This document shows, piece after piece, positions 8,752 to 25,333 of a DNA stretch of 64,000 nt. Source of the stretch: Escherichia coli. GTDB lineage: Bacteria; Pseudomonadota; Gammaproteobacteria; Enterobacterales; Enterobacteriaceae. The notes beneath the pieces are model-generated. The model was not told where the DNA came from, made no database searches, and saw only the letters and a program-made list of their open reading frames with translations. The stretch lies in NCBI RefSeq assembly GCF_009931435.1, contig NZ_CP043414.1; one strand, 5' to 3'. The stretch's first letter is position 1; every line of letters starts with the position of its first letter. A program made the position numbers and the translations under genes.

Positions 8752-11070
8752 ATGAAAATTAGCGACGGAAACTGGTTGATTCAACCTGGCCTCAATTTGA
8801 TTCACCCGCTTCAGGTGTTCGAGGTTGAACAGCAGGGTAATGAAATGGTGGTCTATGCTGCCCCCCGTGATGTGCGTGAACGTACCTGGCAGCTTGATAC
8901 GCCTTTATTTACGCTGCGCTTTTTCTCCCCACAGGAAGGTATTGTCGGTGTACGGATTGAGCATTTTCAGGGGGCGCTGAATAACGGTCCTCATTACCCG
9001 CTCAATATTTTGCAGGACGTGAAGGTCACAATCGAAAACACAGAACGTTACGCTGAGTTTAAAAGTGGCAACTTAAGTGCGCGTGTCAGCAAAGGTGAGT
9101 TCTGGTCACTGGATTTTCTGCGCAACGGCGAACGTATTACCGGTAGTCAGGTGAAAAATAATGGCTACGTGCAGGACACGAATAATCAACGAAATTATAT
9201 GTTTGAGCGGCTGGATCTTGGCGTTGGCGAAACAGTTTACGGTCTGGGAGAGCGCTTTACTGCCCTGGTGCGCAATGGCCAGACGGTAGAGACCTGGAAC
9301 CGGGACGGCGGCACAAGTACTGAACAGGCGTATAAAAATATCCCGTTCTATATGACTAACCGTGGTTATGGTGTACTGGTCAATCATCCTCAATGCGTCT
9401 CTTTTGAAGTGGGATCGGAGAAAGTCTCCAAAGTGCAGTTCAGCGTTGAGGGTGAATATCTCGAATACTTTGTTATTGACGGCCCGACGCCGAAAGCGGT
9501 ACTTGATCGTTATACCCGTTTTACTGGTCGTCCGGCGCTGCCGCCCGCGTGGTCCTTCGGCCTGTGGCTAACCACTTCATTTACCACCAACTACGACGAA
9601 GCGACGGTTAACAGCTTTATCGATGGTATGGCGGAACGCAATCTGCCACTGCATGTTTTCCACTTTGACTGTTTCTGGATGAAAGCCTTCCAGTGGTGCG
9701 ATTTTGAGTGGGACCCGCTGACTTTCCCGGACCCGGAAGGGATGATCCGCCGCCTGAAAGCGAAAGGGCTAAAAATCTGCGTCTGGATTAACCCCTATAT
9801 CGGGCAAAAATCCCCTGTCTTTAAAGAGTTACAAGAGAAAGGTTATTTACTCAAACGCCCGGACGGTTCGCTGTGGCAGTGGGATAAATGGCAGCCAGGT
9901 CTGGCGATTTATGACTTTACCAATCCGGATGCCTGCAAATGGTACGCCGACAAACTGAAAGGTCTGGTCGCGATGGGCGTTGATTGCTTTAAGACCGACT
10001 TTGGCGAACGTATTCCAACCGATGTTCAATGGTTTGACGGTTCCGATCCGCAGAAAATGCATAACCATTATGCGTACATCTACAACGAACTGGTGTGGAA
10101 CGTGCTCAAGGAAACCGTTGGCGAGGAAGAAGCCGTCTTGTTTGCCCGCTCGGCCTCCGTCGGTGCGCAGAAATTCCCGGTACATTGGGGTGGCGACTGT
10201 TATGCTAACTACGAATCAATGGCGGAAAGCCTGCGCGGTGGTTTGTCTATTGGCCTTTCTGGTTTTGGCTTCTGGAGCCACGATATCGGCGGCTTTGAGA
10301 ATACCGCTCCGGCGCACGTTTACAAACGCTGGTGCGCGTTTGGTTTGCTCTCCAGCCATAGCCGTTTACACGGCAGCAAATCTTATCGTGTGCCGTGGGC
10401 CTATGATGATGAGTCCTGTGATGTGGTGCGCTTCTTCACGCAACTGAAATGCCGCATGATGCCGTATCTGTATCGTGAGGCTGCTCGTGCGAACGCGCGG
10501 GGTACGCCGATGATGCGGGCCATGATGATGGAGTTTCCGGACGATCCGGCTTGTGATTACCTTGACCGTCAATACATGTTAGGCGACAACGTGATGGTTG
10601 CTCCGGTGTTCACTGAATCGGGCGATGTGCAGTTCTACTTGCCGGAAGGTCGCTGGACACACCTGTGGCACAACGATGAACTCGATGGTAGTCGCTGGCA
10701 TAAACAGCAGCACGGCTTCCTGAGTCTGCCCGTTTATGTGCGTGATAACACCCTACTGGCGCTGGGCAACAACGAGCAACGTCCCGATTACGCGTGGCAC
10801 GAAGGCACGGCATTCCAGCTCTTTAATCTGCAAGACGGGCATGAAGCCATCTGTGAAGTGCCCGCTGCCGATGGTTCCGTTCTTTTCACCCTGAAAGCGG
10901 CGCGTACTGGCAACACAATTACTGTGAATGGTGCGGGCGTGGCGAAGAACTGGACGCTGTGCTTGCGCAATGTTGTGAAAGTAAATGGTCTGCAAGGCGG
11001 TTCGCAGGCTGAAAGTGAGCAGGGGCTGGTGGTGACGCCTCAAGGGAATGCGCTGACAATTACGTTGTAA
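8752..11070 (+). CDS. yicI: Alpha-xylosidase (GH31) YicI
   Basis: 772-aa product matching K-12 YicI; operon partner of yicJ. Confidence 0.95.
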
Positions 11071-11364
11071 TCTATTGAAGAATGCCGGATACGAATGGTT
11101 TTGTGTCGTATCCGGTAAATAATCTCACATCTGGTAATAAATATTTCTTCCATCGTATTTGCGAGCATGATCACGATTATTCATCGCGAAAATGTGATCT
11201 GTGCTGAAAAATATCCCTTAACCGCCTTGCTTTGTTTTATCACTGTCCGGATTACGGACAGATTTTAGTATTGTTGTGAAATTATTCTGCTTTATATTTA
11301 CCCTCAGAGATGGCAACTGAAGCTCTTCCTCATGGGGCTTCTTAATCTGTGATAAGGGTAAAAA

Positions 11365-12918
11365 ATGCAAATGATTACCTCGCGACAAAACAGATTATTA
11401 CGATTCCTTCTACCACGAAGGGAATATACGACTATTGTTACGATTGCCGGCTATTTAAATGTTTCGGAAAAAACCATTCAACGTGATTTACGTTTACTTG
11501 AGCAATGGCTGGGGCAATGGAGAATAAATGTTGAGAAGCGTGCTGGCGCGGGTGTGATGTTAAGCGCGGAGAATATTGCTGATTTGCTGCATCTTGATCA
11601 TTTGTTGGTGGCAGAATGTGAAGAGATTGATGGTGTAATGAATAATGCCAGGCGCGTTAAAATAGCGTCGCAGTTATTAAGTGAAACACCGAATGAAACG
11701 TCGATCAGTAAATTGTCAGAACGCTACTTTATCAGCGGAGCCTCTATTGTTAATGACCTGAGAGTAATTGAGTCCTGGCTTGCGCCGTTGGGGTTATCGT
11801 TGATCCGCAGCCCAAGTGGTACGCATATTGAAGGTAGTGAAGGGCAAGTCCGACAGGCAATGGCATTACTGATTAACGGCATTATTAACCATAATGAGCC
11901 GCAAGGTGTCGTGTATTCACGTCTGGATCCCGGAAGTTATAAAGCATTAGTCCATTATTTTGGAGAGGAAGAAGTGTTATTTGTCCAGTCATTGTTACTG
12001 GATATGGAAAATGAATTAAGTTGGTCTTTGGGAGAACCTTATTACGTTAACATTTTTACTCACATCCTTATTATGATGTATCGCAACACGCACGGGAATG
12101 CGTTATCAAGAGAAGAAGATCAAACCAGGCAATATGATGAAAATATCTTTAATGTTGCCAGTCAGATGATTCATAAGATAGAACAACGAATTGCACATAC
12201 GTTGCCCGATGATGAAGTCTGGTTTATTTATCAATATATCATTTCATCAGGTGTGGCGATTGATGGACAAAAAGATGTTAGCATTATTTCACATATGCAG
12301 GCCAGCAATGAAGCGCGTCTGATTACCTGGCGTTTAATTACGGTATTCAGTGACATCGTGGACTGCGATTTTAGTGAAGACAGCGCATTATATGATGGCT
12401 TGTTGGTTCATATTAAGCCGCTGATTAACCGTTTAAATTATCGCATTCATATCCGTAATCCATTGCTGGAAGATATTAAAGCAGAATTAGCGGATGTCTG
12501 GCGGTTGACGCAATATGTGGTGAATCAGGTATTTAAAACCTGGGGTGAGAATGCAGTGAGCGAGGATGAAGTGGGTTACCTGACCGTTCATTTTCAGGCT
12601 GCGATGGAGCGGCAAATTGCCCGTAAACGTGTATTACTGGTCTGTTCAACCGGAATCGGAACTTCGCATCTACTGAAAAGCCGTATTCTGCGAGCATTTC
12701 CTGAATGGACGATTGTTGATGTTATTTCAGCAGCGAATTTATCACAGGTTTTGCCTGACAATATCGAACTGATTATTTCGACCATTAATTTGCCTACAGT
12801 CACTATGCCGGTCGCTTATGTTACCGCTTTTTTTAATGATGCCGATATTAAGCGGGTCACTGAAATGGTGATTACGGAAAAATTACATCATGCGACGTCT
12901 CGGGTCGTTGAAATTTAA
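11365..12918 (+). CDS. PRD-domain-containing transcriptional activator with N-terminal HTH and PTS EIIB/EIIA-like regulatory domains (frz operon regulator)
   Basis: 517-aa product; HTH segment (YLNVSEKTIQRDLRLLEQW), EIIB-like LLVCSTGIGTSHLL motif; first gene of the PTS/aldolase cluster. Confidence 0.8.
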   Translation: MQMITSRQNRLLRFLLPRREYTTIVTIAGYLNVSEKTIQRDLRLLEQWLGQWRINVEKRAGAGVMLSAENIADLLHLDHLLVAECEEIDGVMNNARRVKIASQLLSETPNETSISKLSERYFISGASIVNDLRVIESWLAPLGLSLIRSPSGTHIEGSEGQVRQAMALLINGIINHNEPQGVVYSRLDPGSYKALVHYFGEEEVLFVQSLLLDMENELSWSLGEPYYVNIFTHILIMMYRNTHGNALSREEDQTRQYDENIFNVASQMIHKIEQRIAHTLPDDEVWFIYQYIISSGVAIDGQKDVSIISHMQASNEARLITWRLITVFSDIVDCDFSEDSALYDGLLVHIKPLINRLNYRIHIRNPLLEDIKAELADVWRLTQYVVNQVFKTWGENAVSEDEVGYLTVHFQAAMERQIARKRVLLVCSTGIGTSHLLKSRILRAFPEWTIVDVISAANLSQVLPDNIELIISTINLPTVTMPVAYVTAFFNDADIKRVTEMVITEKLHHATSRVVEI

Positions 12919-12944
12919 TGTCAGAATTTTATGAGGTATGACGA

Positions 12945-13415
12945 ATGGACATAACAAAAATCCTGAATACGAATCGCGTTATTTTAGATATGCAAGCGAC
13001 GAATAAAGCGGAGGCGATTGAAGAATTAACTAATCTTCTCAAAAAAGATGGTGCGATCGATTGTCGGGAAACCTTTATTAAAGATGTCTGGCAGCGCGAA
13101 GCGGAAGGCTCGACTGGTTTTGAAAATCATATTGCGATCCCGCATGGTAAATCTTCAGCTGTGATTAATACTACGCTGGCAATTGGCCGTACCCGGCAGG
13201 ATATTCCCTGGGAAACGCTGGATGGCAGTAGCGTGCGCTGTATTATTTTATTTGCGGTACGTCTTGAAGATCAAAATACCACCCATATCCGTTTACTTTC
13301 CCAGGTCGCGGGCGCGCTGGCGGATGATGACATCATAGAACAATTGTTAGTTGAGACGAGTCCGCAAAAAATCATTGATCTCTTTAGTCAGTATGCACAA
13401 TCCGATGTCTGCTAA
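12945..13415 (+). CDS. PTS fructose-family EIIA component
   Basis: 156-aa product with conserved HIAIPHGK phospho-histidine motif. Confidence 0.85.
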   Translation: MDITKILNTNRVILDMQATNKAEAIEELTNLLKKDGAIDCRETFIKDVWQREAEGSTGFENHIAIPHGKSSAVINTTLAIGRTRQDIPWETLDGSSVRCIILFAVRLEDQNTTHIRLLSQVAGALADDDIIEQLLVETSPQKIIDLFSQYAQSDVC

Positions 13416-13432
13416 ATAACAGGGAGTATGTC

Positions 13433-13747
13433 ATGAATATTGTCTGTGTTGCCGCCTGTACGGCGGGTATTGCTCATACCTATATTGCTCGTGAAAAGTT
13501 AATCAAAGGAGCAAAAGCTCTGGGCCATACCATTAAAGTTGAAACCCAGGGAACCATTGGTACAGAAAATGAATTACAGGCGGCAGATATCTCTGCTGCT
13601 GACGTCGTGATTCTTGCTGTAGATGTGAAAATAAAAGGAGAAGAACGCTTCACCAATAAACGTATTGTGCGAGTAAAGACAGAGATCGTCATTAAATCGC
13701 CCGTTCAATTTCTTGAAAAGGTCGAAAAATCACTGGGAAACAAATGA
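13433..13747 (+). CDS. PTS fructose-family EIIB component
   Basis: 104-aa product with N-terminal CVAACTAGIAHTY cysteine phosphorylation motif. Confidence 0.85.
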   Translation: MNIVCVAACTAGIAHTYIAREKLIKGAKALGHTIKVETQGTIGTENELQAADISAADVVILAVDVKIKGEERFTNKRIVRVKTEIVIKSPVQFLEKVEKSLGNK

Positions 13748-13771
13748 TCCTTATACTGGAGGGATCTTAAT

Positions 13772-14863
13772 ATGAAAGACAATAAAATTCCGGTTTCACA
13801 GGAAATTAAAAAACATTTATTAACCGGCATCTCGTGGATGATACCCCTTATTGTGGCCGCCGGGATATGTATTGCGTTGGGGCAAGTTCTTGGCGGTACA
13901 GATGTTGGTGAAAAAACAGGAACAATCCCGTGGATGCTTAATCAGATTGGCGGCTGGGGAATGGGGCTGATTGTGCCGCTGATTAGCGCGGCAATTGCCT
14001 ATTCTATTGCCGATCGTCCCGGATTTGCCCCGGGCCTGATTGTCGGCTTTCTCTGCGGGCAAATCCATACCGGATTTATTGGCGGTATGTTGGGTGGTTT
14101 CCTGGTGGGCTACACCATTTTGCTACTTAAACGCTATATCCGCCTGCCGCAGTCGATGCAAGGACTCATGCCAATCATGGTGTTGCCGGTATTAAGCACC
14201 ATTATCGGTGGGCTGTTAATGATGACGCTGATTGGTAAACCCATCGCCTGGTTACAAGAAGCACTGATTCATTTGCTCGAGTCGATGCAGGGCGGATCGC
14301 GCTTCCTGATGGGGGCCATACTTGGCGCGATGGCAACCTTCGATTTCGGTGGTCCGGTAAATAAAACAATGTCGTTGTTTTCCGATGGCTTGCTGGTCAG
14401 CGGCGTCTATGGGCCAGAAGCCGTGAAATTTGTCGGCTCAATCATCCCTCCGTTTGGCATCACACTTTCGTTCTTACTGACACGCCATAAATACACCCGT
14501 GCGGAGCGCGAGGCGCTGAAAGCCGCGTTTCCGATGGGGATCTGCATGATCACTGAAGGAGTCATTCCGATCGCCGCGCGTGACTTGCTGCGAGTGGTGG
14601 GATCTTGTGTGGTGGCTTCTGCGGTAGCTGGCGGCTTGATCATGGTGTGGGGCGTGGAGAGTCCGGTTCCGCATGGCGGCCTGTTTGTTGTGCCTTTGTT
14701 CACCCATCCTCTGCTGTTTTGCCTGGCGCTGGGTATAGGCACGGTGATTTGTGGCGTGATGCTTTCACTCTGGAAGAAACCGGTAACGGAACGTGACGAA
14801 GAGTTTGACGAACTGAGCGATCAAAAGCTGAAAGATGAAGAGATCACTTTCACCCTCGAATAA
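13772..14863 (+). CDS. PTS fructose-family EIIC permease
   Basis: 363-aa polytopic membrane protein immediately downstream of the EIIB gene. Confidence 0.85.
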   Translation: MKDNKIPVSQEIKKHLLTGISWMIPLIVAAGICIALGQVLGGTDVGEKTGTIPWMLNQIGGWGMGLIVPLISAAIAYSIADRPGFAPGLIVGFLCGQIHTGFIGGMLGGFLVGYTILLLKRYIRLPQSMQGLMPIMVLPVLSTIIGGLLMMTLIGKPIAWLQEALIHLLESMQGGSRFLMGAILGAMATFDFGGPVNKTMSLFSDGLLVSGVYGPEAVKFVGSIIPPFGITLSFLLTRHKYTRAEREALKAAFPMGICMITEGVIPIAARDLLRVVGSCVVASAVAGGLIMVWGVESPVPHGGLFVVPLFTHPLLFCLALGIGTVICGVMLSLWKKPVTERDEEFDELSDQKLKDEEITFTLE

Positions 14864-14874
14864 CCGGAGGCCCT

Positions 14875-15726
14875 ATGTTTGCCGATATGAAAAGTATGGT
14901 GATGAAAGCCTGGCATGAACATTACGCCTTGCTGGCGATCAACTGTATGAATCTGGAAAGTGCTCACGCAGCTATCCGCGTGGCGGAGAAGAATCGCGCT
15001 CCGATCATTCTCAATCTCTATCAGGGGCATCTGGCGCATTTTCCTGCACCCGTCGCGGCGGCAGTGGTTAAAACGCTCGCGGAATCTGCCTCAGTACCGG
15101 TCGCTCTGGCGCTTGATCATGGCAAAAATCCGGACTGTATTCGTCAGGCGTTTCGTGCTGGTTTCAGCGGATTAATGATTGATGCTTCTGCTTTTCCCCT
15201 GGAGGAAAACGTGCGCCAGACCAGGGCGGTGGTGGAACTCGCCGCCAGCGCGCAGCTCTGCGTGGAAGGCGAACTGGGCCATCTGGCAGATGCGCCGCGT
15301 TACGACCAAGCCACCAATGCCGACCTGATGACGCAACCCACTGATGTGGAACCGTTTATCGCGCAGACAGGCATTGATCTACTGGCCGTCTCGGTAGGCA
15401 CGGCGCACGGCATGTACGCGCCTGGTGTTGTACCTGCTATTGATTTTCAGCGTCTGGCGGAGATTTTCCACTGCTCGAGCGTGCCTCTGGCATTACATGG
15501 CGGTAGCGGTACGCCGTTCGATCAGCTCCAGCTCTGTACGACGCTGGGGGTAGCAAAAATCAACGTGGGGGCGGCCATTTTTGAACGGGGGAAATCCGCG
15601 CTCCTGCATACCCTCTGTCACGATATATCCATTGAACTGGTGGACGCGCTGAAAGCTATGGAACTGGCCTTCGAAGAAGCGGTTACACCGTATTTACAGG
15701 CGAGCGGCTCTATCGGCAAAGCCTGA
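14875..15726 (+). CDS. Class II ketose-bisphosphate aldolase family protein (GatY/KbaY/FbaA-like)
   Basis: 283-aa product with LALDHG and HG..G motifs of class II aldolases. Confidence 0.8.
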   Translation: MFADMKSMVMKAWHEHYALLAINCMNLESAHAAIRVAEKNRAPIILNLYQGHLAHFPAPVAAAVVKTLAESASVPVALALDHGKNPDCIRQAFRAGFSGLMIDASAFPLEENVRQTRAVVELAASAQLCVEGELGHLADAPRYDQATNADLMTQPTDVEPFIAQTGIDLLAVSVGTAHGMYAPGVVPAIDFQRLAEIFHCSSVPLALHGGSGTPFDQLQLCTTLGVAKINVGAAIFERGKSALLHTLCHDISIELVDALKAMELAFEEAVTPYLQASGSIGKA

Positions 15727-15806
15727 TTCATTTTCTGTCATGGCCTTTATGCCAGTGCAATAACGCACCGGCAGGGCGGACTACACGCTGAAACTGGAGA
15801 TTTAAC

Positions 15807-16667
15807 ATGTTAGTTTCGATGAAAGAATTACTGCAACCTACCCGCCAGCACGGCTTTGCCATTGGCGCATTTAATGTGGCGGATAACTGTTTCCTTCGCG
15901 CAGTCGTGGATGAAGCAGAAGCGACAAATACTCCGGCGATTATTGCCATCCATCCCAGCGAACATGATTTTGTGGGCGATGCCTTTTTCGCTCACATTCG
16001 CGAAATTACCCAGCGTAGTCCGGTCCCGTTTGTACTGCACCTCGATCATGGTGCCTCTGTAGAGCATGTTTTGCGTGCGATTCGCTGCGGATTTACCTCA
16101 GTAATGATCGACGGTTCGCTGCTGCCGTATGAAGAAAACGTGGCGCTGACCGCAGAAGTGGTTCGCCTCGCTCATGCGGTTGGCGTGTCGGTTGAGGGTG
16201 AACTGGGGACCATCGGACAAACAGGAACGTCAGTGGAAGGTGGAGTTTCACAAGTTACCTACACTGACCCGGCGCAAGCCGCCGATTTTATTGCTCGTAC
16301 AGGTGCCGACACACTGGCTGTGGCGATTGGTACAGCGCATGGCATCTATCCAAAAGGGATGCAACCGAAGCTGCAAATGGACATTTTGCGCGACATTGCC
16401 GGACGTATTGATATTCCGCTGGTGCTACACGGTGGTTCGGCAAACCCGGACGCGGAGATTGCTGAATCAGTTACGCTCGGCGTCGGCAAAATCAATATCT
16501 CCAGCGATATGAAATACGCCTATTTCCAGAAAGTGCGTGAAATTCTCGCTAAAGAGAGCTGGTGGGACCCGAACGTCATCTATCCGGATGCGATTAACGC
16601 GGCGCGGGAAGTCATTCGCCACAAAATGAAACTGTTCGGTTCGCTCGGTAAAGCATCACTGTACTAA
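15807..16667 (+). CDS. Class II ketose-bisphosphate aldolase (tagatose/fructose-bisphosphate aldolase-like)
   Basis: 286-aa product; HLDHG, LVLHGGS motifs. Confidence 0.85.
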   Translation: MLVSMKELLQPTRQHGFAIGAFNVADNCFLRAVVDEAEATNTPAIIAIHPSEHDFVGDAFFAHIREITQRSPVPFVLHLDHGASVEHVLRAIRCGFTSVMIDGSLLPYEENVALTAEVVRLAHAVGVSVEGELGTIGQTGTSVEGGVSQVTYTDPAQAADFIARTGADTLAVAIGTAHGIYPKGMQPKLQMDILRDIAGRIDIPLVLHGGSANPDAEIAESVTLGVGKINISSDMKYAYFQKVREILAKESWWDPNVIYPDAINAAREVIRHKMKLFGSLGKASLY

Positions 16668-16714
16668 GCCAGAAGGGCGGGGTGACCCGCCTTTTACGCA
16701 ACAAGGAACGAGAT

Positions 16715-17647
16715 ATGCACTATCTGGGGTTGGATATTGGTGGGACCAAAATCGCCGCCGTCGTCATGGATGCGCATGGCTGGGAGATTCGCCGTTACCG
16801 CTGCCCGACGCAAAAGTCGACATATCAACAATTTGTCTCATGCGTTGTGGCGCTTATCGAGCAGATTAGGCGGGACGTTCAACGACCGATGCTGACAGGG
16901 ATCGCCTTACCCGGCAGTATCTCGCCACTCACTGGCCTGATTAAAAATGCGAATATTCAGGTGATTAACGGTCATGCGTTACAGGCTGATTTGCAGCAAT
17001 TGCTTGGGCAACCGGTGGTGATAGCCAATGATGGTAACTGTTTCGCGCTATCAGAAGCTTGCGACGGTGCCGGGCAAGATTATGACGTGGTATTTGGTAT
17101 TACGCTTGGCACGGGCTGCGGCGGTGGCATTGCCATCAAGCAACGACCGTTTATAGGGGCCTGGGGAAATGCTGCCGAATGCGGTCATATCACGTTGCCA
17201 GGCTATACGGAGCAGGAAGATGGTCCATCAGTCAGTTGCTATTGCGGCAAACACAACTGCGTGGAGTCGTTTGTTTCCGGCAGCGGTTTTAGTGAACGCT
17301 ATCAACAGATGACTGGTAACTTGCTCACTCCTGCGGCGATTGTCACCCTGGCACAACGTGGTGATGCTTGTGCCATGCAGCAGGTGGCACGTTTTCGCCA
17401 ACAGCTTGCCCGCACGCTGGCAACCATCGTTAACGTTGTTGACCCTGGCGTGATTGTGATCGGCGGCGGGCTTTCGAATGTGGAACTGCTTATCACCGAT
17501 CTGAACGCAGAAGTCGCTCCACTGGTTTTCACCGATCAATTCACCACTCCCATTGTAAAAGCACAGCACGGCGACAGTAGCGGAATGCGTGGCGCTGCCT
17601 GGCTTGCTATGCGCAACGGAGAAGCCAATGAAACGCTCACAAATTAA
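16715..17647 (+). CDS. ROK-family sugar kinase
   Basis: Start chosen at MHYLGLDIGGTKIAAV (ROK ATP-binding motif) with an upstream AGGAACGAG ribosome-binding site; the ORF track begins 33 nt earlier. Confidence 0.8.
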   Translation: MHYLGLDIGGTKIAAVVMDAHGWEIRRYRCPTQKSTYQQFVSCVVALIEQIRRDVQRPMLTGIALPGSISPLTGLIKNANIQVINGHALQADLQQLLGQPVVIANDGNCFALSEACDGAGQDYDVVFGITLGTGCGGGIAIKQRPFIGAWGNAAECGHITLPGYTEQEDGPSVSCYCGKHNCVESFVSGSGFSERYQQMTGNLLTPAAIVTLAQRGDACAMQQVARFRQQLARTLATIVNVVDPGVIVIGGGLSNVELLITDLNAEVAPLVFTDQFTTPIVKAQHGDSSGMRGAAWLAMRNGEANETLTN

Positions 17648-18308
17648 TTATGTTATTGATAAAGCACATGCCATTGCGCAGACCTTCCGCGTTTGTTTGC
17701 CTGAGTTCGCCTATTTTACGGTGGATGACTGGCTGCAGCGGGAACGGGATAACTGGCAAGAAGTAGTCGACTTACAGCTCGGTTGGGATATCACCGATTT
17801 TGGTCGTGGTGATTTCAACCAAACGGGACTAACACTGCTAACGATGCGCAACGGCGCGCTGGGGTCGGCGGCATATCCAAAACCGTATGCTGAGAAAATG
17901 TTGCAGATCCAACAAGATCAGCAGACTCCCTGGCATTTTCACACCCACAAAATGGAAGATATCCTCAATCGGGGCGGTGGAGACTTATGCATGCAGTTGG
18001 CCTGGGCCAACGAAGCCAATCTCTGTGATGATCAACGAGTCATTACCGTGAATGTTGATGGTCAGCGGCGTACCATGAAACCTGGTGAAACGCTGGTGTT
18101 AAAGCCGGGGCAGGGCATTTGCCTGCCGCCGCGTCTGTATCATCGCTTCTGGGCGGAAAAAGCGTTTGTTCTCGGCTGGGAAATTTCGATGGTAAATGAT
18201 GACCAACACGATAATTATTTTCTTGAGCCGGGAGGACGTTTTCCGGCGATAGAAGAAGATGAACCGGTGAAATGGTTATTGTGCAGTGAGTATGGAATTT
18301 TGCGCTAA
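17628..18308 (+). CDS. Cupin-superfamily protein (putative sugar isomerase)
   Basis: Start chosen at MKRSQINYV preceded by GGAGAAG; HFHTHKMEDI metal-binding-type motif; 20-nt overlap with the kinase gene end. Confidence 0.7.
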   Translation: MKRSQINYVIDKAHAIAQTFRVCLPEFAYFTVDDWLQRERDNWQEVVDLQLGWDITDFGRGDFNQTGLTLLTMRNGALGSAAYPKPYAEKMLQIQQDQQTPWHFHTHKMEDILNRGGGDLCMQLAWANEANLCDDQRVITVNVDGQRRTMKPGETLVLKPGQGICLPPRLYHRFWAEKAFVLGWEISMVNDDQHDNYFLEPGGRFPAIEEDEPVKWLLCSEYGILR

Positions 18309-18317
18309 TAACGGGGA

Positions 18318-18353
18318 ACGCTAGCGCTGATATCCGCTAGCGTCCTAATTTTT
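18318..18353. terminator. Bidirectional terminator hairpin between the frz operon and yicH
   Basis: Perfect 9-bp stem ACGCTAGCG/CGCTAGCGT with 8-nt loop, followed by CCTAATTTTT. Confidence 0.5.
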
Positions 18354-20061
18354 ACTGCACCGGCTCCGTCGACGTAACTTCACCACTGGAAACTACGCCC
18401 GCATTCATGGTTTGAGTCACTTGCTGCTTTGCGGCATTCACGGCATGCAATTGCCCGCTAACCGTAGGTTTCAGCGGGACATTGACCTGAATATCGCCAC
18501 TGGCGGCAAGCTGAATATTGCCGTCGCCAGTCAACGGTAGTTCAGGCCATCCCCACTGTTGCAAAATATTCACCGGCACACCGCGTCCATTCAGGCTGAT
18601 ATGGGTCTGACGTTGTGGCGTTTGTGAAACACTGGCGGTGGCTTCCAGAATACCTTTTTCGGTAAATGCGCTCAGTTCGCTGATATTTACCGTACTGCTA
18701 TTGGCAGTCAGCGCCAGCGACGGGCGACGGACATCAACACGATTAAACGTCGCGGCGGCGGCATTCAGATTCACCGAACCACTCCAGACGCCCCATTTAT
18801 GATCGGTAACCAGCGTCAGATTCGCGCCGTAACCATCGAGCGCGGTGAGTTGCCACGGGAAGTCAGGGTTGATATCAATAATTAGATTGCGGCTGGCGCT
18901 AAATCTCTTCAGTTGCAGACTGTTTAACCAGCCGGGTGTCATTTCCATCCACAACTGTTGCCAGTTTTTCGGCAAGGTATATTCCAGCCCGGCAATTGCC
19001 GCATCATCAAGCAACAGCGTTTTCCCGTCACGCAACCAGTTCCCTGACGTTCTGACCATGCCACCTTCCCAGCGGCTGGTGAACTGGCGGAGCGCTACGC
19101 CCTGCGGGGAAAATTCCGCGTTTATAATAGGGTCAAATAAATGCAGCGAACCATAAATGAACTCGCTGGCGTTCATCGACAGTTTGCCTTCCTGTGTCTG
19201 CCAGTCATCTTTACTGAAGGTCATGTTGCGCAAGCTGAGATCGAGATCGGTCACCGCCCAGTCCGGGCCTTGCAGGCGAGCATCGATGACTTCCAGACGA
19301 CCAATCTGCAAGGACGGGACAGAGCGTAATGGTGCAAAGAAGTCAGTTAGCGATTTTTCGCTTTGTAGACGGATATCCGCCAGGCGCAGATTTTCCACCT
19401 GCCAGCTGCCGTCGGCGTTACGCTGCGCGTTTCCGGTTAATGTCCCGCGGGTGATGTCAGCACCCAGATTAGTCAGCGTAACGCGATCGTTATCAATACT
19501 GCCTTCAATCAGTACATTGGTAGCAGGAACATTATTGAGCGAAAGCGATCCGGCGCTGAATTGAATCTGCGCCTTCGTACCCAGCACTTTACCGGCTTCT
19601 GGTGACCACGGAACCACGCCGCCATTTACCCGTTGCGCGCTCAGTTTCCATTCGCTATTCGGGCTATTAAACGCCATATCACGCAGTTGCAGACGATCGG
19701 CTTTGAACGGCAGCGGCGCGGTCTGGTCGGTGAGATTCAGCGTCCCGTTTTCCAGCAGGATGGTATCGACATGGCGTGGTTCGGTCAGTTGCCGACTGCT
19801 TAGCGCAATGTCGACACTTTTTGCCACCAGGGTCGCGGGCTGACCATCACGACCAAACGTGACGTTCTCCAGTACGATATGAGATGGCGCGGAAAAACGG
19901 TGATCCATCGCCCCGAAGGCCAGATGATAGTCGCTATTATCGGAAACCCATGCGCTGATATGTTCTGCTCCCCAGCGGGTTTGCAGAAGGAAATAGAGGC
20001 CAGCGATCGCCACTAACAGAGCGATGAGAATGTAGAGAAGCAGCTTCCCAATAAATTTCAT
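18352..20061 (-). CDS. yicH: AsmA-family protein YicH
   Basis: Start at MKFIGKLLLYIL gives 569 aa as in K-12. Confidence 0.9.
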   Translation of the reverse strand: MKFIGKLLLYILIALLVAIAGLYFLLQTRWGAEHISAWVSDNSDYHLAFGAMDHRFSAPSHIVLENVTFGRDGQPATLVAKSVDIALSSRQLTEPRHVDTILLENGTLNLTDQTAPLPFKADRLQLRDMAFNSPNSEWKLSAQRVNGGVVPWSPEAGKVLGTKAQIQFSAGSLSLNNVPATNVLIEGSIDNDRVTLTNLGADITRGTLTGNAQRNADGSWQVENLRLADIRLQSEKSLTDFFAPLRSVPSLQIGRLEVIDARLQGPDWAVTDLDLSLRNMTFSKDDWQTQEGKLSMNASEFIYGSLHLFDPIINAEFSPQGVALRQFTSRWEGGMVRTSGNWLRDGKTLLLDDAAIAGLEYTLPKNWQQLWMEMTPGWLNSLQLKRFSASRNLIIDINPDFPWQLTALDGYGANLTLVTDHKWGVWSGSVNLNAAAATFNRVDVRRPSLALTANSSTVNISELSAFTEKGILEATASVSQTPQRQTHISLNGRGVPVNILQQWGWPELPLTGDGNIQLAASGDIQVNVPLKPTVSGQLHAVNAAKQQVTQTMNAGVVSSGEVTSTEPVQ

Positions 20062-20181
20062 GGTCTTCCATCCCGTGAAATGCACATAAGGGAGTTATGC
20101 ACGATTTACGCGCAATCCTCAAGGCGGGAATGGTGAAAGAGGTGAGACTGCGGCGGTAATTATCTTACCGCCGTCAGTGAA

Positions 20182-21573
20182 TTACTGTTTTTCTGGTGGG
20201 AAAATCAGATTCAGCACGATGGCAGTAATACCGCCCGCGGCGATCCCGGAGGAGAGCAGGTTTTTCAGCCATTCAGGGGCAAACTGCAAAATCAGCGGCT
20301 GCTGAGACACGCCCAGACCGACCGCCAGCGACAGCGCGATAATCAGAATCGCCCGACGGTTCAGCGGCTCACGAGAAACGATACGCACACCGGAGGCGGC
20401 GATGGTGCCAAACATTACAAGCGTTGCGCCGCCCAGAACCGGTTCTGGAATGTGTTGTACAAAACCGCTCACTGCCGGGAACAGACCCAGCACGATCAAC
20501 ATCAGCGCGACGACAAAACCGACATAGCGGCTGGCAACACCGGTCAACTGGATCACACCGTTGTTCTGCCCGAAGCAGGAGTTCGGGAAAGTGTTAAACA
20601 CCGCCGAGACAAACGAGTTCAGACCGTTTGCCAGCACGCCGCCTTTCAGACGTTTCATGTATAGCGGACCGGACACTGGCTGTTCGGAAACGTCAGAGGT
20701 CGCCGTGATATCGCCAATGGTTTCCAGCGAAGTGATCATAAAGACCAGCATCAGCGGTAGCAGCAGACTCCATTCAATGCCAAGACCGTAATAGAGCGGC
20801 GTTGGCACCATAATCAGTTCTTGCGTCATCGGTTCGTTGCTTTCTGGCAACATGCCCATAAACCACGCCAGCGCATATCCGGCCGCCATCGCAATCACCA
20901 GTGAGGCCACGCGCAAATATGGGTTACGTTGACGGTTAAGCAGGATAATTAAGGCCAAGACCACGCCTGCCAGCAACAGATTTTTCGGTGCGCCGAAGGT
21001 GTTATCGCTCATGGCTGCGTAACCGCCGCCAATGGATGTTAGCCCAACCTGAATTAGCGACAGGCCGATAATCATCACCACAACGCCAGAAACCAGCGGC
21101 GTAATAATGCGGCGCGCCAGATGCAGAACACGGGAGATCACCATCTCGGTGCAACTTGCCAGCATCAGCGTGCCGAACAAAGCCGCCATCATGGTAGGAA
21201 CATCAGCACCACCAGTCTTAAGCGCTGTACCGCCCATAATCAGCGGGGCAACAAAGTTGAAGCTGGTGCCCTGAATAGACAACAGCCCGGAGCCAACCGG
21301 ACCCCAGGCCTTAATTTGAATAATCGACGCCACACCGGAGGCAAACAGCGACATACTAATAATGTGTTGCGTGTCTTGTGCCGGTAAACCCAGCGCCTGG
21401 CAGATTAATAGCGCTGGCGTGATCACCGCAACGAACATCGCCAGCAGATGCTGGCAGGCGGCAAACAGAGTTTGAGGAAGCGGCGGACGATCTTCAAGAC
21501 GGTAAATCAGTTCGCTGTTTTGAGTCTGCGCAACCGGTTGCGCATTTTCTGACTCGAGGGTGGAAACAGACAT
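20182..21573 (-). CDS. xanP: Xanthine permease XanP (NCS2 family)
   Basis: Start at [12 protein letters not shown] gives 463 aa matching K-12 XanP (YicE). Confidence 0.95.
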
Positions 21574-21852
21574 CGAAAACAATCCCGTGGTAGCAAAGCG
21601 GGCATTTTAGCTGACCGAAAGAGAAAAGCAAACGTTTGCCACGGCCTCTGCTAAATATTTAAATGAGATAAATGCACTTTTTTATATAACTTTTGGTATT
21701 TTTCTGCTTAAAATCCATGCCATTTGTTCATTAACAGCTGAGAATTTGACCCAGGAAAGCATGACTCGATACCCGTCATATTTCATGAAGGTGCCACTGC
21801 GCGATGAAGTATGACGAGTATGAAAGAGTGATGCGGATACAAAGGAGTAACT

Positions 21853-23058
21853 ATGTTTCATCTCGATACTTTAGCAACGCTTGTTGCCGCAACGCTGACG
21901 TTGCTGCTCGGGCGTAAGTTGGTCCATTCCGTCTCCTTTTTGAAGAAATACACCATACCGGAACCTGTTGCGGGTGGTTTGTTGGTGGCGCTGGCGCTAC
22001 TGGTACTGAAAAAAAGCATGGGCTGGGAAGTCAACTTTGATATGTCCCTGCGCGATCCGTTAATGCTGGCTTTCTTCGCCACCATTGGCCTGAACGCCAA
22101 CATTGCCAGTCTGCGCGCTGGTGGGCGTGTGGTTGGTATTTTCCTGATTGTGGTTGTTGGCCTATTGGTGATGCAAAATGCCATTGGCATTGGTATGGCT
22201 AGCCTGTTAGGGCTTGATCCACTGATGGGGCTGCTGGCCGGTTCTATTACGCTTTCGGGCGGTCACGGTACGGGTGCTGCCTGGAGTAAATTGTTCATTG
22301 AACGTTATGGCTTCACCAATGCGACGGAAGTGGCGATGGCCTGTGCAACGTTCGGTTTGGTGCTGGGCGGCTTGATTGGCGGTCCGGTGGCGCGCTATCT
22401 GGTGAAACACTCCACCACACCGAACGGTATTCCGGATGACCAGGAAGTCCCGACGGCGTTCGAAAAGCCGGATGTGGGCCGCATGATCACCTCGCTGGTG
22501 CTGATTGAAACTATCGCGCTGATTGCTATCTGCCTGACGGTGGGGAAGATCGTTGCGCAACTTTTGGCTGGCACTGCTTTTGAACTGCCGACCTTCGTCT
22601 GTGTACTGTTTGTTGGCGTGATTCTGAGCAACGGTCTGTCAATGATGGGCTTTTACCGCGTCTTTGAGCGTGCGGTATCCGTGCTTGGTAACGTAAGCCT
22701 GTCGTTGTTCCTGGCGATGGCGCTGATGGGGCTGAAACTATGGGAGCTGGCTTCGCTGGCGCTGCCGATGCTGGCGATTCTGGTGGTACAGACCATCTTC
22801 ATGGCGTTGTATGCCATTTTCGTCACCTGGCGCATGATGGGTAAAAACTACGATGCGGCAGTGCTGGCAGCGGGTCACTGTGGTTTTGGCCTTGGTGCAA
22901 CGCCAACGGCAATCGCCAACATGCAGGCAATCACCGAACGTTTTGGCCCGTCGCACATGGCGTTCCTGGTCGTGCCGATGGTTGGTGCGTTCTTTATTGA
23001 TATCGTTAACGCGCTGGTGATTAAACTGTATTTGATGTTGCCGATTTTTGCGGGTTAA
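21853..23058 (+). CDS. gltS: Sodium/glutamate symporter GltS
   Basis: 401-aa product MFHLDTLATLVAATLTLLLGRK... matches GltS. Confidence 0.95.
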   Translation: MFHLDTLATLVAATLTLLLGRKLVHSVSFLKKYTIPEPVAGGLLVALALLVLKKSMGWEVNFDMSLRDPLMLAFFATIGLNANIASLRAGGRVVGIFLIVVVGLLVMQNAIGIGMASLLGLDPLMGLLAGSITLSGGHGTGAAWSKLFIERYGFTNATEVAMACATFGLVLGGLIGGPVARYLVKHSTTPNGIPDDQEVPTAFEKPDVGRMITSLVLIETIALIAICLTVGKIVAQLLAGTAFELPTFVCVLFVGVILSNGLSMMGFYRVFERAVSVLGNVSLSLFLAMALMGLKLWELASLALPMLAILVVQTIFMALYAIFVTWRMMGKNYDAAVLAAGHCGFGLGATPTAIANMQAITERFGPSHMAFLVVPMVGAFFIDIVNALVIKLYLMLPIFAG

Positions 23059-23167
23059 TTGATGAAGCGGCGGTAGAAGTGCCGCCGCAACAAAGACAAA
23101 AGCCTGATATGCTTCGCTTATCAAGTCTGCGTATTGATTCACAATTTATTGAATTTGTAGTTTTTTT

Positions 23168-23203
23168 GTAGGACGGATAAGGCGTTCACGCCGCATCCGG
23201 CAG
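23168..23203. repeat. REP (repetitive extragenic palindromic) element
   Basis: GTAGGACGGATAAGGCGTTCACGCCGCATCCGGCAG matches the E. coli REP consensus; lies in the gltS-recG convergent intergenic region. Confidence 0.7.
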
Positions 23204-23246
23204 GAAGGTAGGGTAACCTGAAATGGCGGTTTCTCACCGCCGCCTT

Positions 23247-25328: not shown

Positions 25329-25333
25329 GGCGC

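What the first reader, a model, noticed from the sequence alone, without database searches (positions are those of the whole stretch)
11365..18308. Accessory PTS/aldolase/kinase/cupin operon (frz-like) inserted between yicI and yicH
In K-12, yicI is followed directly by yicH. Here a 7-kb, eight-gene unit is inserted: a PRD-type activator, a fructose-family PTS EIIA, EIIB and EIIC, two class II ketose-bisphosphate aldolases, a ROK sugar kinase and a cupin-type putative isomerase. This composition and location correspond to the frz operon reported in extraintestinal pathogenic E. coli, where it was linked to fitness under stress and host-cell interaction. Its substrate is still not defined, and the cupin protein and the presence of two aldolases are not explained by a simple fructose pathway.
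Basis: partly seen in the sequence, partly recalled or inferred. Interest (0 to 1): 0.45.

Follow-up and report, generated by a model that had tools for sequence, protein, structure and literature searches.

The report
The known frz sugar operon of E. coli
This is the already described frz operon of extraintestinal pathogenic E. coli, intact and in its usual place. The new points are that it looks like an old enterobacterial locus that K-12-type strains lost, and that its enzymes suggest a testable pathway for its still-unknown sugar.

Summary
Window 11365-18308 holds eight intact, co-directional genes between yicI and yicH: a PRD/Mga-type regulator, fructose-family PTS EIIA, EIIB and EIIC, two class II aldolases, a ROK kinase and a cupin.

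It is the frz operon. Published frz PCR primers match exactly and give the published 843-bp product. LF82, reported to share this region with the frz type strain BEN2908, has the same eight genes at 98.4-100% nucleotide identity. 1605 of 5426 complete E. coli genomes carry it; 3810 have the K-12 empty junction.

- The cupin belongs to the D-lyxose/D-mannose isomerase family (48% identical to solved Z5688).
- "Inserted" is probably the wrong polarity. Citrobacter, Klebsiella, Phytobacter and Superficieibacter have frz at the same yicI/yicH site. Its divergence resembles that of the flanks, and its codon GC follows each host. No mobility signature was found.
- Neither aldolase keeps the Arg that binds the distal phosphate in FBP/TBP aldolases, and ROK is missing from about half the species. 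I infer ketose-1-phosphate cleavage, not a 1,6-bisphosphate route.
- A conserved palindrome and promoter lie upstream.

The substrate remains unknown. Already known; low to moderate interest.

The parts
8752..11070 (+). yicI (GH31 alpha-xylosidase), left flank
   Evidence: NF007940 at 1430 bits. Annotated as yicI in LF82 and K-12.
11084..11116 (+). Hairpin downstream of yicI, shared with the K-12 yicI/yicH spacer. It marks the left edge of the frz-specific DNA.
   Evidence: Alignment to the K-12 junction and the sequence itself: GCCGGATACG...CGTATCCGG.
11117..18346 (.). DNA present here and absent from K-12-type genomes (about 7.23 kb)
   Evidence: BEN2908 region GR27 is 7227 bp (PMC12928451). 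No flanking direct repeats, IS element or integrase.
11160..11175 (+). CRP-like site TGCGA-N6-TCACG (inferred)
   Evidence: The half-site columns are invariant across 10 sequences from 8 genera (alignment A4). The pattern count alone is not above chance.
11193..11208 (+). Second conserved TGTGATCT element, a possible CRP half-site (inferred)
   Evidence: Invariant TGTGATCT in alignment A4.
11244..11260 (+). Palindrome TGTCC-N7-GGACA, a candidate operator for the frz regulator (inferred)
   Evidence: One copy in the window and one in each of 22 of the 23 other frz-bearing loci, all upstream of the regulator gene; the HS-02 remnant has one too, and the non-frz loci have none. The Buttiauxella locus differs at one arm base. 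Arm sequence is otherwise invariant while the spacer varies.
11271..11298 (+). Promoter-like TTGTTG-16 nt-TATATT (inferred)
   Evidence: TTATATTTA and ATTTAGTATTGT are conserved at a fixed distance from the palindrome in the other genera. The weak -35 fits an activator-dependent promoter. The consensus scan did not call it.
11365..12918 (+). frz regulator, a PRD-containing activator of 517 aa
   Evidence: HTH_11, Mga, two PRD and PTS_IIB domains. It has an EIIB-like P-loop, RVLLVCSTGIGTS, and no EIIA domain. Weak PDB matches to LicT PRDs, AtxA and AcpB. The frz PCR primers lie inside this gene.
12945..13415 (+). PTS EIIA, fructose family
   Evidence: TIGR00848 above its cut-off. Active-site motif HIAIPHG.
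13433..13747 (+). PTS EIIB, fructose family
   Evidence: TIGR00829 above its cut-off. Cysteine motif ACTAGIAHT.
13772..14863 (+). PTS EIIC, fructose family
   Evidence: TIGR01427 at 312 bits against 157.55. No equivalog cut-off is reached: FruA 299 against 793. ITEG motif present.
14875..15726 (+). Class II (PF01116) aldolase 1. Catalytic residues are kept; the C-terminal region is divergent and lacks both distal-phosphate basic residues.
   Evidence: No NCBIfam cut-off is reached.
15807..16667 (+). Class II (PF01116) aldolase 2. Catalytic residues are kept; it has DPN where bisphosphate aldolases have DPR.
   Evidence: NF006042 at 524.8 bits against 405 and TIGR00167 at 258.8 against 215.6. 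WWDPN is invariant in all 24 sequences with a complete aldolase 2, including the window. Alignments A2 and A3.
16715..17647 (+). ROK-family sugar kinase with no DNA-binding domain
   Evidence: PF00480 E = 1e-73. Best NCBIfam hit is Mak fructokinase at 318.7 bits, below the 443 cut-off. Motifs LDIGGTK, ECGH and CYCGKHNCVE. Nearest solved structures are NagK-type kinases. Absent from 10 of 21 species loci.
17628..18308 (+). Cupin of the D-lyxose/D-mannose isomerase family
   Evidence: PF07385 E = 6e-87. NF051472 at 271 bits, below the 350 cut-off. PDB 3kmh/3mpb E = 5.5e-64. 48% identical to ECs_5070. HxH..E and H metal motifs are conserved.
18314..18353 (+). Terminator hairpin plus T-run between the convergent frz operon and yicH
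   Evidence: Folding gives -19.1 kcal/mol, z = -2.7.
18352..20061 (-). yicH (AsmA family), right flank
   Evidence: PF05170. LF82 annotation.

Best explanation
This is the frz operon of extraintestinal pathogenic E. coli. It is a single chromosomal transcription unit for uptake and breakdown of a carbohydrate that has not yet been identified.

Shown here:
- All eight genes are intact and keep their catalytic or phosphorylation motifs.
- The locus sits between yicI and yicH.
- It matches the published frz diagnostics.
- About 30% of complete E. coli genomes carry it.
- It lies at the same chromosomal site in several other enterobacterial genera.

Inferred regulation:
- Transcription starts at an activator-dependent sigma-70 promoter about 70 nt upstream of the regulator gene.
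- The PRD regulator binds the conserved TGTCC-N7/8-GGACA palindrome just upstream of the -35 element.
- Its activity is set by PTS phosphorylation of its PRDs and its EIIB-like cysteine, so it is on when substrate is being transported.
- A CRP-like site adds catabolite control.

Inferred pathway (my estimate about 0.3):
- The fructose-family EIIABC imports a ketose and delivers it as ketose-1-phosphate.
- The two zinc aldolases lack the distal-phosphate arginine of FBP/TBP aldolases. They cleave ketose-1-phosphate(s), possibly two epimers, into DHAP plus a free aldose or aldehyde.
- The D-lyxose/D-mannose-type cupin isomerises that free aldose to a ketose.
- The Mak-like ROK kinase, or a host kinase where ROK is absent, phosphorylates the ketose into central metabolism.

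Inferred origin: the locus is ancestral at this site and was deleted in the lineages leading to K-12-type E. coli.
For: Identity:
- Exact primer matches and an 843-bp amplicon.
- The same eight genes in LF82 at 98.4-100% nucleotide identity.
- GR27, the frz region, is 7227 bp in BEN2908 and shared with LF82.

Intactness.

Census: 1605 genomes with full frz, 3810 with the empty junction, out of 5426.

Ancestry:
- yicJ-yicI-frz-yicH-xanP-gltS synteny in Citrobacter, Klebsiella, Phytobacter ursingii and Superficieibacter.
- frz protein identity to those genera is 70-97%, against 68-96% for the flanking genes.
- GC3 of the frz genes rises with the GC3 of the host flanks in each genus.
- No repeats, IS element or integrase at the borders.
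- Essentially never found on plasmids.
- An independent deletion remnant in E. coli HS-02.

Regulation:
- The palindrome occurs once per frz locus in 23 of 24 frz loci, and in the HS-02 remnant.
- Conserved -10, SD and CRP-like columns.

Pathway:
- Catalytic residues D-H, H, H, E, K and N are invariant in both aldolases.
- GatY, KbaY and FbaA have DPR. Aldolase 2 has invariant DPN. Aldolase 1 has nothing alignable and has Phe where GatY and KbaY have Lys.
- The ketose-1-phosphate aldolase YdjI, and the aldolases next to the solved isomerase Z5688 and its Salmonella/Yokenella relatives, also lack this Arg.
- ROK is absent from 10 of 21 species loci, with the cupin directly after aldolase 2.
- The ROK and cupin families act on unphosphorylated sugars.
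Against: - No substrate or enzyme activity is known for any frz protein. I could not read the primary paper (Rouquet 2009 is not held).
- The role of the DPR arginine (E. coli FbaA Arg331) rests on my own knowledge of the literature, not on a tool result.
- Aldolase 2 keeps a Lys at the second basic position that GatY and KbaY also have. It also passes the TIGR00167 "ketose-bisphosphate aldolase" subfamily cut-off, so it might still bind an anionic distal group.
- The link between the cupin and a PF01116 aldolase is not universal. Three distant homologues have no aldolase nearby.
- The CRP-like match is not unusual by count.
- The window's frz genes are closer to LF82's (98.4-100%) than its flanks are (95.7-98.3%). 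Recombinational exchange of frz within E. coli therefore also occurs, and simple vertical descent is not the whole story.
Confidence: 0.8

Rival explanations
1. Classical reading of the annotation. A ketohexose (fructose, tagatose, sorbose or psicose) enters as the 1-phosphate. The ROK kinase or host FruK/PfkB phosphorylates it at C6. The two enzymes then cleave it as true ketose-1,6-bisphosphate aldolases of different stereospecificity, as in the fru, gat and aga pathways.
For: - PF01116 hits, and aldolase 2 passes the TIGR00167 ketose-bisphosphate subfamily cut-off.
- The nearest solved structures are FBP and TBP aldolases.
- Aldolase 2 keeps a Lys that GatY and KbaY also have.
- As I recall it, the published description calls them ketose-1,6-bisphosphate aldolases.
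Against: - Neither aldolase has the DPR arginine that is present in GatY, KbaY, FbaA and the Thermus and Bacillus FBAs.
- No equivalog cut-off for any FBP or TBP aldolase is reached.
- The only kinase is a ROK type, a family known for free sugars, and it is missing from about half the species' clusters.
- This route gives no role to an isomerase of free aldoses.
Confidence: 0.3
2. Frz is mainly a sensory or regulatory PTS. Its phosphorylation state, or a metabolite it makes, signals nutrient status and shifts the fim switch and stress fitness. Little carbon flows through it.
For: The reported phenotypes are fitness in late stationary phase, under oxygen restriction, in serum and in the gut, and a bias of the fimS switch to ON (PMC8777976; PMC6727828; PMC6238794). 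A 2021 review lists frz under unknown functions (PMC8069529). The regulator has the domain layout of the Mga/AtxA virulence regulators, without an EIIA domain.
Against: All four enzymes keep their catalytic residues under long-term purifying selection across at least seven genera, most of them not pathogens. The palindrome is found only once per locus, upstream of frz itself, which fits a dedicated catabolic operon.
Confidence: 0.15
3. frz is a horizontally acquired islet that was inserted between yicI and yicH in the ExPEC/B2 lineage.
For: - It is absent from K-12 and from 70% of complete E. coli genomes.
- The first 3 kb are AT-rich, 38-45% GC.
- The window's frz genes are more similar to LF82's than its flanks are, so the segment can move between E. 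coli lineages by recombination.
Against: - Other genera have the same site and order, with flank-like divergence and host-tracking GC3.
- The AT-rich regulator/EIIA/EIIB part is AT-rich in every genus, so it is an old feature.
- No mobility genes or repeats.
- Not plasmid-borne.
- A cryptic-clade Escherichia genome has it at the same site (L006).
- A deletion remnant exists.
Confidence: 0.1

Closest known systems
frz operon of avian ExPEC strain BEN2908 (Rouquet et al. 2009, J Bacteriol 191:4427; GR27 in PMC12928451)
   Same: Eight-gene composition, position between yicI and yicH, size (about 7.23 kb against 7227 bp), exact match of the diagnostic primers and amplicon size, and near-identity to LF82, which is reported to share GR27.
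   Different: Nothing of substance. This copy is 98.0-99.4% identical to the copies in complete E. coli genomes, and it sits in a lineage whose flanks are at most 98.2% identical to any complete genome.
E. coli O157:H7 Z5688/ECs_5070 D-lyxose isomerase cluster (PDB 3kmh, 3mpb)
   Same: The cupin is 48% identical, with its metal ligands conserved. It sits directly next to a PF01116 aldolase that also lacks the DPR arginine, and next to a sugar kinase and a regulator.
   Different: It has an ABC transporter instead of a PTS, a PfkB kinase instead of ROK, one aldolase instead of two, and a different chromosomal site. There the isomerase must act first, on an imported free aldose.
E. coli ydj cluster (YdjH kinase and YdjI L-glycero-L-galacto-octuluronate-1-phosphate aldolase)
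   Same: YdjI is a PF01116 zinc aldolase annotated as acting on a ketose 1-monophosphate. It lacks both basic residues of the distal-phosphate site, as frz aldolase 1 does.
   Different: It uses MFS transporters, a PfkB kinase and dehydrogenases, with no PTS and no cupin. Identity to the frz aldolases is 31-36%.
gat/aga tagatose-1,6-bisphosphate pathways (GatYZ, KbaYZ) and the fru operon (FruBKA)
   Same: A PTS is coupled to a class II aldolase step, and the PTS components belong to or resemble the Fru/Gat superfamily.
   Different: Those pathways need a 1- or 6-phosphofructokinase-type kinase, and GatY/KbaY need a Z chaperone subunit. Their aldolases keep DPR. None contains an isomerase of free aldoses.
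PRD-containing transcription activators: MtlR/LicR/ManR type and Mga/AtxA/AcpB type
   Same: An N-terminal HTH plus Mga DNA-binding domains, two PRDs and an EIIB(Gat)-like domain with a P-loop cysteine.
   Different: It has no C-terminal EIIA(Mtl)-like domain, so its layout is that of Mga/AtxA, not MtlR/LicR. It scores 83 bits against the AcpB/EbpR/MafR model, below the 130 cut-off.

Membership tests
frz operon (ExPEC) | Eight genes: a PRD activator, EIIA, EIIB and EIIC of the fructose family, two class II aldolases, a ROK kinase and a cupin | tested here: met
frz operon (ExPEC) | Located between yicI and yicH, which are adjacent in K-12 | tested here: met
frz operon (ExPEC) | Amplified by the published frz primers to give 843 bp | tested here: met
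   Zero mismatches at 11770-11789 and 12593-12612, giving 843 bp.
frz operon (ExPEC) | Sequence identity to the BEN2908 type sequence | tested here: inconclusive
LF82, reported to share GR27 at more than 95% identity, is 98.4-100% identical per gene.
frz operon (ExPEC) | Phenotypes: stress fitness and a fim switch biased to ON | not testable with these tools
   Known only from the literature.
PTS fructose family EIIA/EIIB/EIIC | Family models passed, and the phosphorylation-site His (EIIA) and Cys (EIIB) present | tested here: met
   TIGR00848, TIGR00829 and TIGR01427 are above their cut-offs. IPH and ACTAGIAHT motifs present.
PTS fructose family EIIA/EIIB/EIIC | Equivalog of a transporter with known substrate (FruA, MngA, Frv/Frw-type) | tested here: not met
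   All equivalog scores are far below their cut-offs, for example FruA at 299 against 793.
Class II ketose-1,6-bisphosphate aldolase (FbaA/GatY/KbaY type) | Zinc ligands (three His) and the catalytic Asp and Glu | tested here: met
   These columns are invariant in alignments A2 and A3. LDHG, GTAHG and LHGGS occur in all orthologues.
Class II ketose-1,6-bisphosphate aldolase (FbaA/GatY/KbaY type) | The arginine of the DPR motif that binds the distal phosphate (FbaA Arg331; role from my own knowledge) | tested here: not met
   Aldolase 2 has DPN. Aldolase 1 has no alignable Arg. GatY, KbaY and FbaA have DPR.
Class II ketose-1,6-bisphosphate aldolase (FbaA/GatY/KbaY type) | NCBIfam equivalog cut-off for an FBP or TBP aldolase | tested here: not met
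   None is reached. Aldolase 2 passes only the subfamily models NF006042 and TIGR00167. Aldolase 1 passes none.
ROK sugar kinase | ATP-binding DxGxT, the ExGH sugar motif and the zinc Cys motif, with no HTH domain | tested here: met
   LDIGGTK, ECGH and CYCGKHNCVE in a 310-aa protein. PF00480.
ROK sugar kinase | Equivalog of Mak (fructo/mannokinase) or NagK | tested here: not met
   318.7 bits against 443, and 245.9 against 380.
D-lyxose/D-mannose isomerase (cupin, PF07385) | Family model passed and cupin metal ligands (HxH, E, H) conserved | tested here: met
   PF07385 at 290.9 bits. Aligned to 3kmh with the motifs kept. Motifs present in orthologues.
D-lyxose/D-mannose isomerase (cupin, PF07385) | NCBIfam equivalog cut-off (NF051472) | tested here: not met
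   271 bits against 350.
D-lyxose/D-mannose isomerase (cupin, PF07385) | Isomerase activity on D-lyxose or D-mannose | not testable with these tools
   Needs an enzyme assay.
MtlR/LicR-type PRD activator | HTH + Mga + PRD1 + PRD2 + EIIB(Gat) + EIIA(Mtl) domains | tested here: not met
   All domains are present except the C-terminal EIIA. The protein ends about 20 residues after the EIIB-like domain. The layout matches Mga/AtxA-type regulators instead.

The most novel reading that the evidence does not exclude
Frz encodes a pathway type that has not been described. A fructose-family PTS delivers a ketose-1-phosphate, possibly a rare ketose or one with seven or more carbons. Two zinc aldolases that lack the distal-phosphate site cleave it directly to DHAP plus a free aldose. 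A D-lyxose/D-mannose-type isomerase and a hexokinase-like ROK kinase then salvage that aldose. On this reading the pathway is an ancient, chromosomally fixed enterobacterial trait that most non-B2 E. coli have lost, and not an ExPEC acquisition.
Probability: 0.25. Interest if true: 0.55.

Novelty: already known. Interest (0 to 1): 0.27.

Why it matters
frz is used as an ExPEC/APEC marker and has been linked to stress fitness, gut colonisation and type 1 fimbriae, yet its substrate has been unknown since 2009. The analysis here does not change what the locus is. It narrows the biochemical question by predicting ketose-1-phosphate aldolases that feed a free-aldose isomerase and kinase. It gives a defined promoter and operator to use as a reporter. 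It also reframes the "virulence-associated insertion" as an ancestral enterobacterial sugar locus whose loss, not gain, distinguishes K-12-type strains. If the substrate were found, it would show which host or dietary sugar gives B2 strains an edge.

Tried and rejected
- Primary papers: Rouquet 2009, Reperant 2011, the YdjI paper and three class II aldolase structure papers are not held. What I say about the frz description, about Arg331 and about the Asp/Ala position that separates FBP from TBP aldolases is marked as my own knowledge.
- Literature searches for a frz substrate, for Z5688 context, for lyxose isomerase with PTS or aldolase, and for Arg331 found nothing useful.
- Mobile-element signatures: no flanking direct or inverted repeats, IS element or integrase at the frz borders.
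- Plasmid carriage: there are only two hits. One is a 4.9-Mb record that is evidently a chromosome, and the other is a 607-bp fragment of the regulator gene.
- Rfam: no RNA family in 10500-19000, even at E <= 1.
- Leader RNA: the E. coli leader folds better than shuffles (z = -3.1), but RNAalifold on 11 genera-spanning leaders gave no consensus structure. I make no riboregulation claim.
- The palindrome was flagged as terminator-like. I reject that reading because the arm sequence, and not just the pairing, is invariant, and because it lies upstream of the conserved -10.
- The CRP consensus count is not above chance in the window (17 found against 25.7 expected). Only the cross-genus conservation supports the site.
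- Pseudo-aldolase idea: I considered that one of the two aldolases is a non-catalytic partner like GatZ. I rejected it because both keep every catalytic residue in all orthologues.
- The link between the cupin and an aldolase is not universal outside Enterobacteriaceae.

Full report
**What is there.** Window 11365-18308 carries eight co-directional open reading frames on the + strand, with short or overlapping junctions and no internal stops. Pfam and NCBIfam identify them as follows:
- a 517-aa regulator with HTH_11, Mga, two PRD domains and an EIIB-like domain;
- EIIA, EIIB and EIIC of the fructose PTS family, with TIGR00848, TIGR00829 and TIGR01427 all above their curated cut-offs;
- two PF01116 class II aldolases;
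- a ROK kinase;
- a PF07385 "D-lyxose isomerase" cupin.

The phosphorylation-site His of EIIA, the Cys of EIIB, the ITEG motif of EIIC, the P-loop Cys of the regulator's EIIB-like domain and the ROK ATP, sugar and zinc motifs are all present. The flanks are yicI (alpha-xylosidase) and the convergent yicH (AsmA family). In K-12 MG1655 these two genes are separated by only 52 bp.

**Boundaries.** The alignment with the K-12 junction shows that the hairpin after yicI (11084-11116) is shared. Homology resumes a few bases before the yicH stop codon, so the DNA absent from K-12 is about 11117-18346, or 7.23 kb. I found no direct or inverted repeats, IS elements or integrase at these borders. A hairpin plus T-run at 18314-18353 (z = -2.7) lies between the cupin gene and yicH.

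**Identity.**
- The frz diagnostic primers listed in PMC6238794 match with no mismatch at 11770-11789 (+) and 12593-12612 (-).
- E. coli LF82 carries the same eight genes between yicI and yicH, at 98.4-100% nucleotide identity per gene.
- The 2026 BEN2908 genome paper reports the frz region (GR27, 7227 bp) as shared by ExPEC and AIEC strains, including LF82, and absent from K-12.
- The primary description (Rouquet et al. 2009) is not in the held library. A 2021 review still lists frz among genes of unclear function.
- I conclude that this is the frz operon, intact.

**Distribution in E. coli.**
- Of 5426 complete E. coli genomes, 1605 carry at least 80% of the operon at 98.0-99.4% identity.
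- 3810 have the K-12-type empty junction.
- About eleven are something else. One of them, strain HS-02, keeps only the first 266 bp of the regulator gene next to yicH, which is an independent deletion.
- frz is essentially never plasmid-borne.

**Origin.**
- A scan of one genome per bacterial species with the regulator found 21 loci: a cryptic-clade Escherichia, many Citrobacter species, Phytobacter, Kosakonia, Superficieibacter and Buttiauxella. Look-ups from cupin homologues added another Citrobacter and a Klebsiella.
- In Citrobacter, Klebsiella, Phytobacter ursingii and Superficieibacter the order is yicJ-yicI-frz-yicH-xanP-gltS, as in the window.
- Protein identity of the frz genes to the window (70-97%) is in the same range as that of the flanking core genes (68-96%).
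- Third-codon GC of the frz genes rises and falls with that of the flanks in each genus.
- The low GC of the regulator, EIIA and EIIB genes, which gives the 38-45% GC stretch at 11000-14000, is seen in every genus, so it is an old feature and not a sign of recent import.
- The most economical reading is an ancestral locus at this site that was deleted in the E. coli lineages represented by K-12.
- One caveat applies. The window's frz genes are closer to LF82's (98.4-100%) than its flanks are (95.7-98.3%). No complete E. coli genome exceeds 98.2% identity over yicH-recG. Exchange of the segment between E. coli lineages by homologous recombination probably also happens.

**Regulatory region.** An alignment of the region upstream of the regulator gene, with 10 sequences from 8 genera, shows blocks of invariant columns. 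In window coordinates they are:
- a CRP-like TGCGA-N6-TCACG at 11160-11175;
- a TGTGATCT element at 11193-11200;
- a palindrome TGTCC-N7/8-GGACA at 11244-11260;
- the block ATTTAGTATTGT;
- a -10-like TATATT at 11293-11298, 16 nt after TTGTTG;
- the ribosome-binding site.

The palindrome occurs once in the window and once in each of 22 of the 23 other frz-bearing loci; the Buttiauxella locus differs at one arm base. It is always upstream of the regulator gene. The HS-02 remnant has it too, and the non-frz loci do not. Its arms are conserved in sequence while the spacer varies, which argues for a protein-binding site and against the terminator that the consensus scan suggested. I infer an activator-dependent promoter with the regulator's operator just upstream of a weak -35, plus catabolite control.

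The CRP match is not significant by count alone. No Rfam family matches. A leader hairpin that folds well in E. coli gave no consensus structure across genera.

**The enzymes and a proposed pathway.**
- *The cupin.* It is 48% identical to ECs_5070/Z5688 of E. coli O157:H7, whose structure is deposited as a D-lyxose isomerase (3kmh, 3mpb). The HxH..E and H metal motifs are conserved. That gene lies in an ABC transporter-cupin-PF01116 aldolase-PfkB kinase-regulator cluster. A third enterobacterial cluster type, in Salmonella and Yokenella, has MFS-epimerase-cupin-PF01116 aldolase-PfkB-dehydrogenase-DeoR. Outside the family the link to an aldolase is not general.
- *Catalytic residues of the aldolases.* I aligned both frz aldolases with GatY, KbaY, FbaA, YdjI and the aldolases of the two cupin clusters. 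Every zinc and catalytic residue is invariant.
- *The distal-phosphate site.* The three proven bisphosphate aldolases have a DPR motif, as do the Thermus and Bacillus FBAs. To my knowledge its arginine is FbaA Arg331, the binder of the distal phosphate. Aldolase 2 has DPN, invariant in all 24 sequences with a complete aldolase 2, including the window. Aldolase 1 has no alignable arginine and has Phe where GatY and KbaY have Lys.
- *Comparison with monophosphate aldolases.* YdjI, annotated as an octuluronate-1-phosphate (monophosphate) aldolase, and the aldolases of the O157 and Salmonella cupin clusters lack this arginine too.
- *The FBP/TBP position.* At the position that, to my knowledge, is Asp in FBP aldolases and Ala in TBP aldolases, aldolase 1 has Gly and aldolase 2 has Ser.
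- *The ROK gene.* It is absent from 10 of the 21 species loci, and the cupin gene then follows aldolase 2 directly. The kinase therefore cannot be an obligatory step between the PTS and the aldolases.
- *The model.* Together these points suggest that the PTS yields a ketose-1-phosphate. The aldolases split it into DHAP and a free aldose or aldehyde. The cupin and the Mak-like ROK kinase, both from families that act on unphosphorylated sugars, bring that product into central metabolism. This would explain why enzymes for free sugars sit beside a PTS and why there are two aldolases (two epimeric substrates). I put this at about 0.3. Aldolase 2 keeps one Lys of the distal site and passes the TIGR00167 subfamily cut-off, so the classical 1,6-bisphosphate route remains a serious rival.

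**Comparison with known systems and verdict.** The locus is a member of the published frz operon by every test I could run. Its parts should not be filed as equivalogs of FruA, FBP or TBP aldolases, Mak, or the Gram-negative D-lyxose/D-mannose isomerase. In each case the curated equivalog cut-off is not reached, and for the aldolases a defining residue is also missing. The regulator has the Mga/AtxA domain layout (no EIIA domain), not that of MtlR/LicR.

Novelty is "already known". Interest is low to moderate. The value added here is the evolutionary reframing, a defined operator and promoter, and a specific biochemical hypothesis that can be refuted for a substrate question open since 2009.

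Noticed in passing
window 92-7067: A selC-associated island. tRNA-Sec lies at 6973-7067 (-). Next to it are a P4-type integrase (5489-6673, -), a TPR protein (4034-5077, -), an IS1 transposase (3278-3781), a chloramphenicol acetyltransferase (2146-2805, -) and a fragment of a Tn3-family transposase (92-1501). This is a chromosomal resistance module next to the frz region.
   Followed up: partly
window 18352-26000 and 7303-11070: No complete E. coli genome in the collection is more than 98.2% identical over yicH-recG. The flanks are about 96-98% identical to both K-12 and LF82, while the frz genes are 98.4-100% identical to LF82. The source lineage is poorly represented, and frz is less diverged than its flanks.
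   Followed up: partly
L027 4001-4266 (E. coli HS-02, NZ_CP172818.1): Only the first 266 bp of the frz regulator gene remain, directly abutting yicH. This is an independent deletion of the operon, annotated as a pseudogene.
   Followed up: yes
L015, L018, L020, L024 (Citrobacter), about 9790-9920: An insertion of about 124 nt in the frz leader, between the -10 element and the ribosome-binding site. It contains GAATCCCCTG...ACATAAGTACGTGAC...GGGGTGAGCG and looks like an ERIC/IRU repeat.
   Followed up: no
L004 10960-14839 (Klebsiella sp.): Here the frz cluster lacks the ROK gene. An extra RpiR regulator, a GH4 glycosidase and a PTS EIICB module lie between the cupin gene and yicH.
   Followed up: no
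L025 15361-15888 and L011 16262-16351: Kosakonia oryziphila has a ROK gene truncated after residue 176 and no cupin. A soil MAG keeps only the first 30 codons of the cupin. The distal end of the operon decays in some lineages.
   Followed up: partly
plasmid NZ_MN335640.1 86250-86856: A 607-bp internal fragment of the frz regulator gene (window 11886-12492, 99.3% identity) sits on a 93-kb conjugative E. coli plasmid. PLSDB record NZ_CP134663.1 (4.9 Mb), labelled as a plasmid, carries the whole operon and is evidently a chromosome.
   Followed up: no
window 11000-14000: The regulator, EIIA and EIIB genes are markedly AT-rich (GC 0.42-0.44, GC3 0.35-0.42) compared with the rest of the operon and the flanks. 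The same contrast is seen in every genus examined. The reason is unknown.
   Followed up: partly
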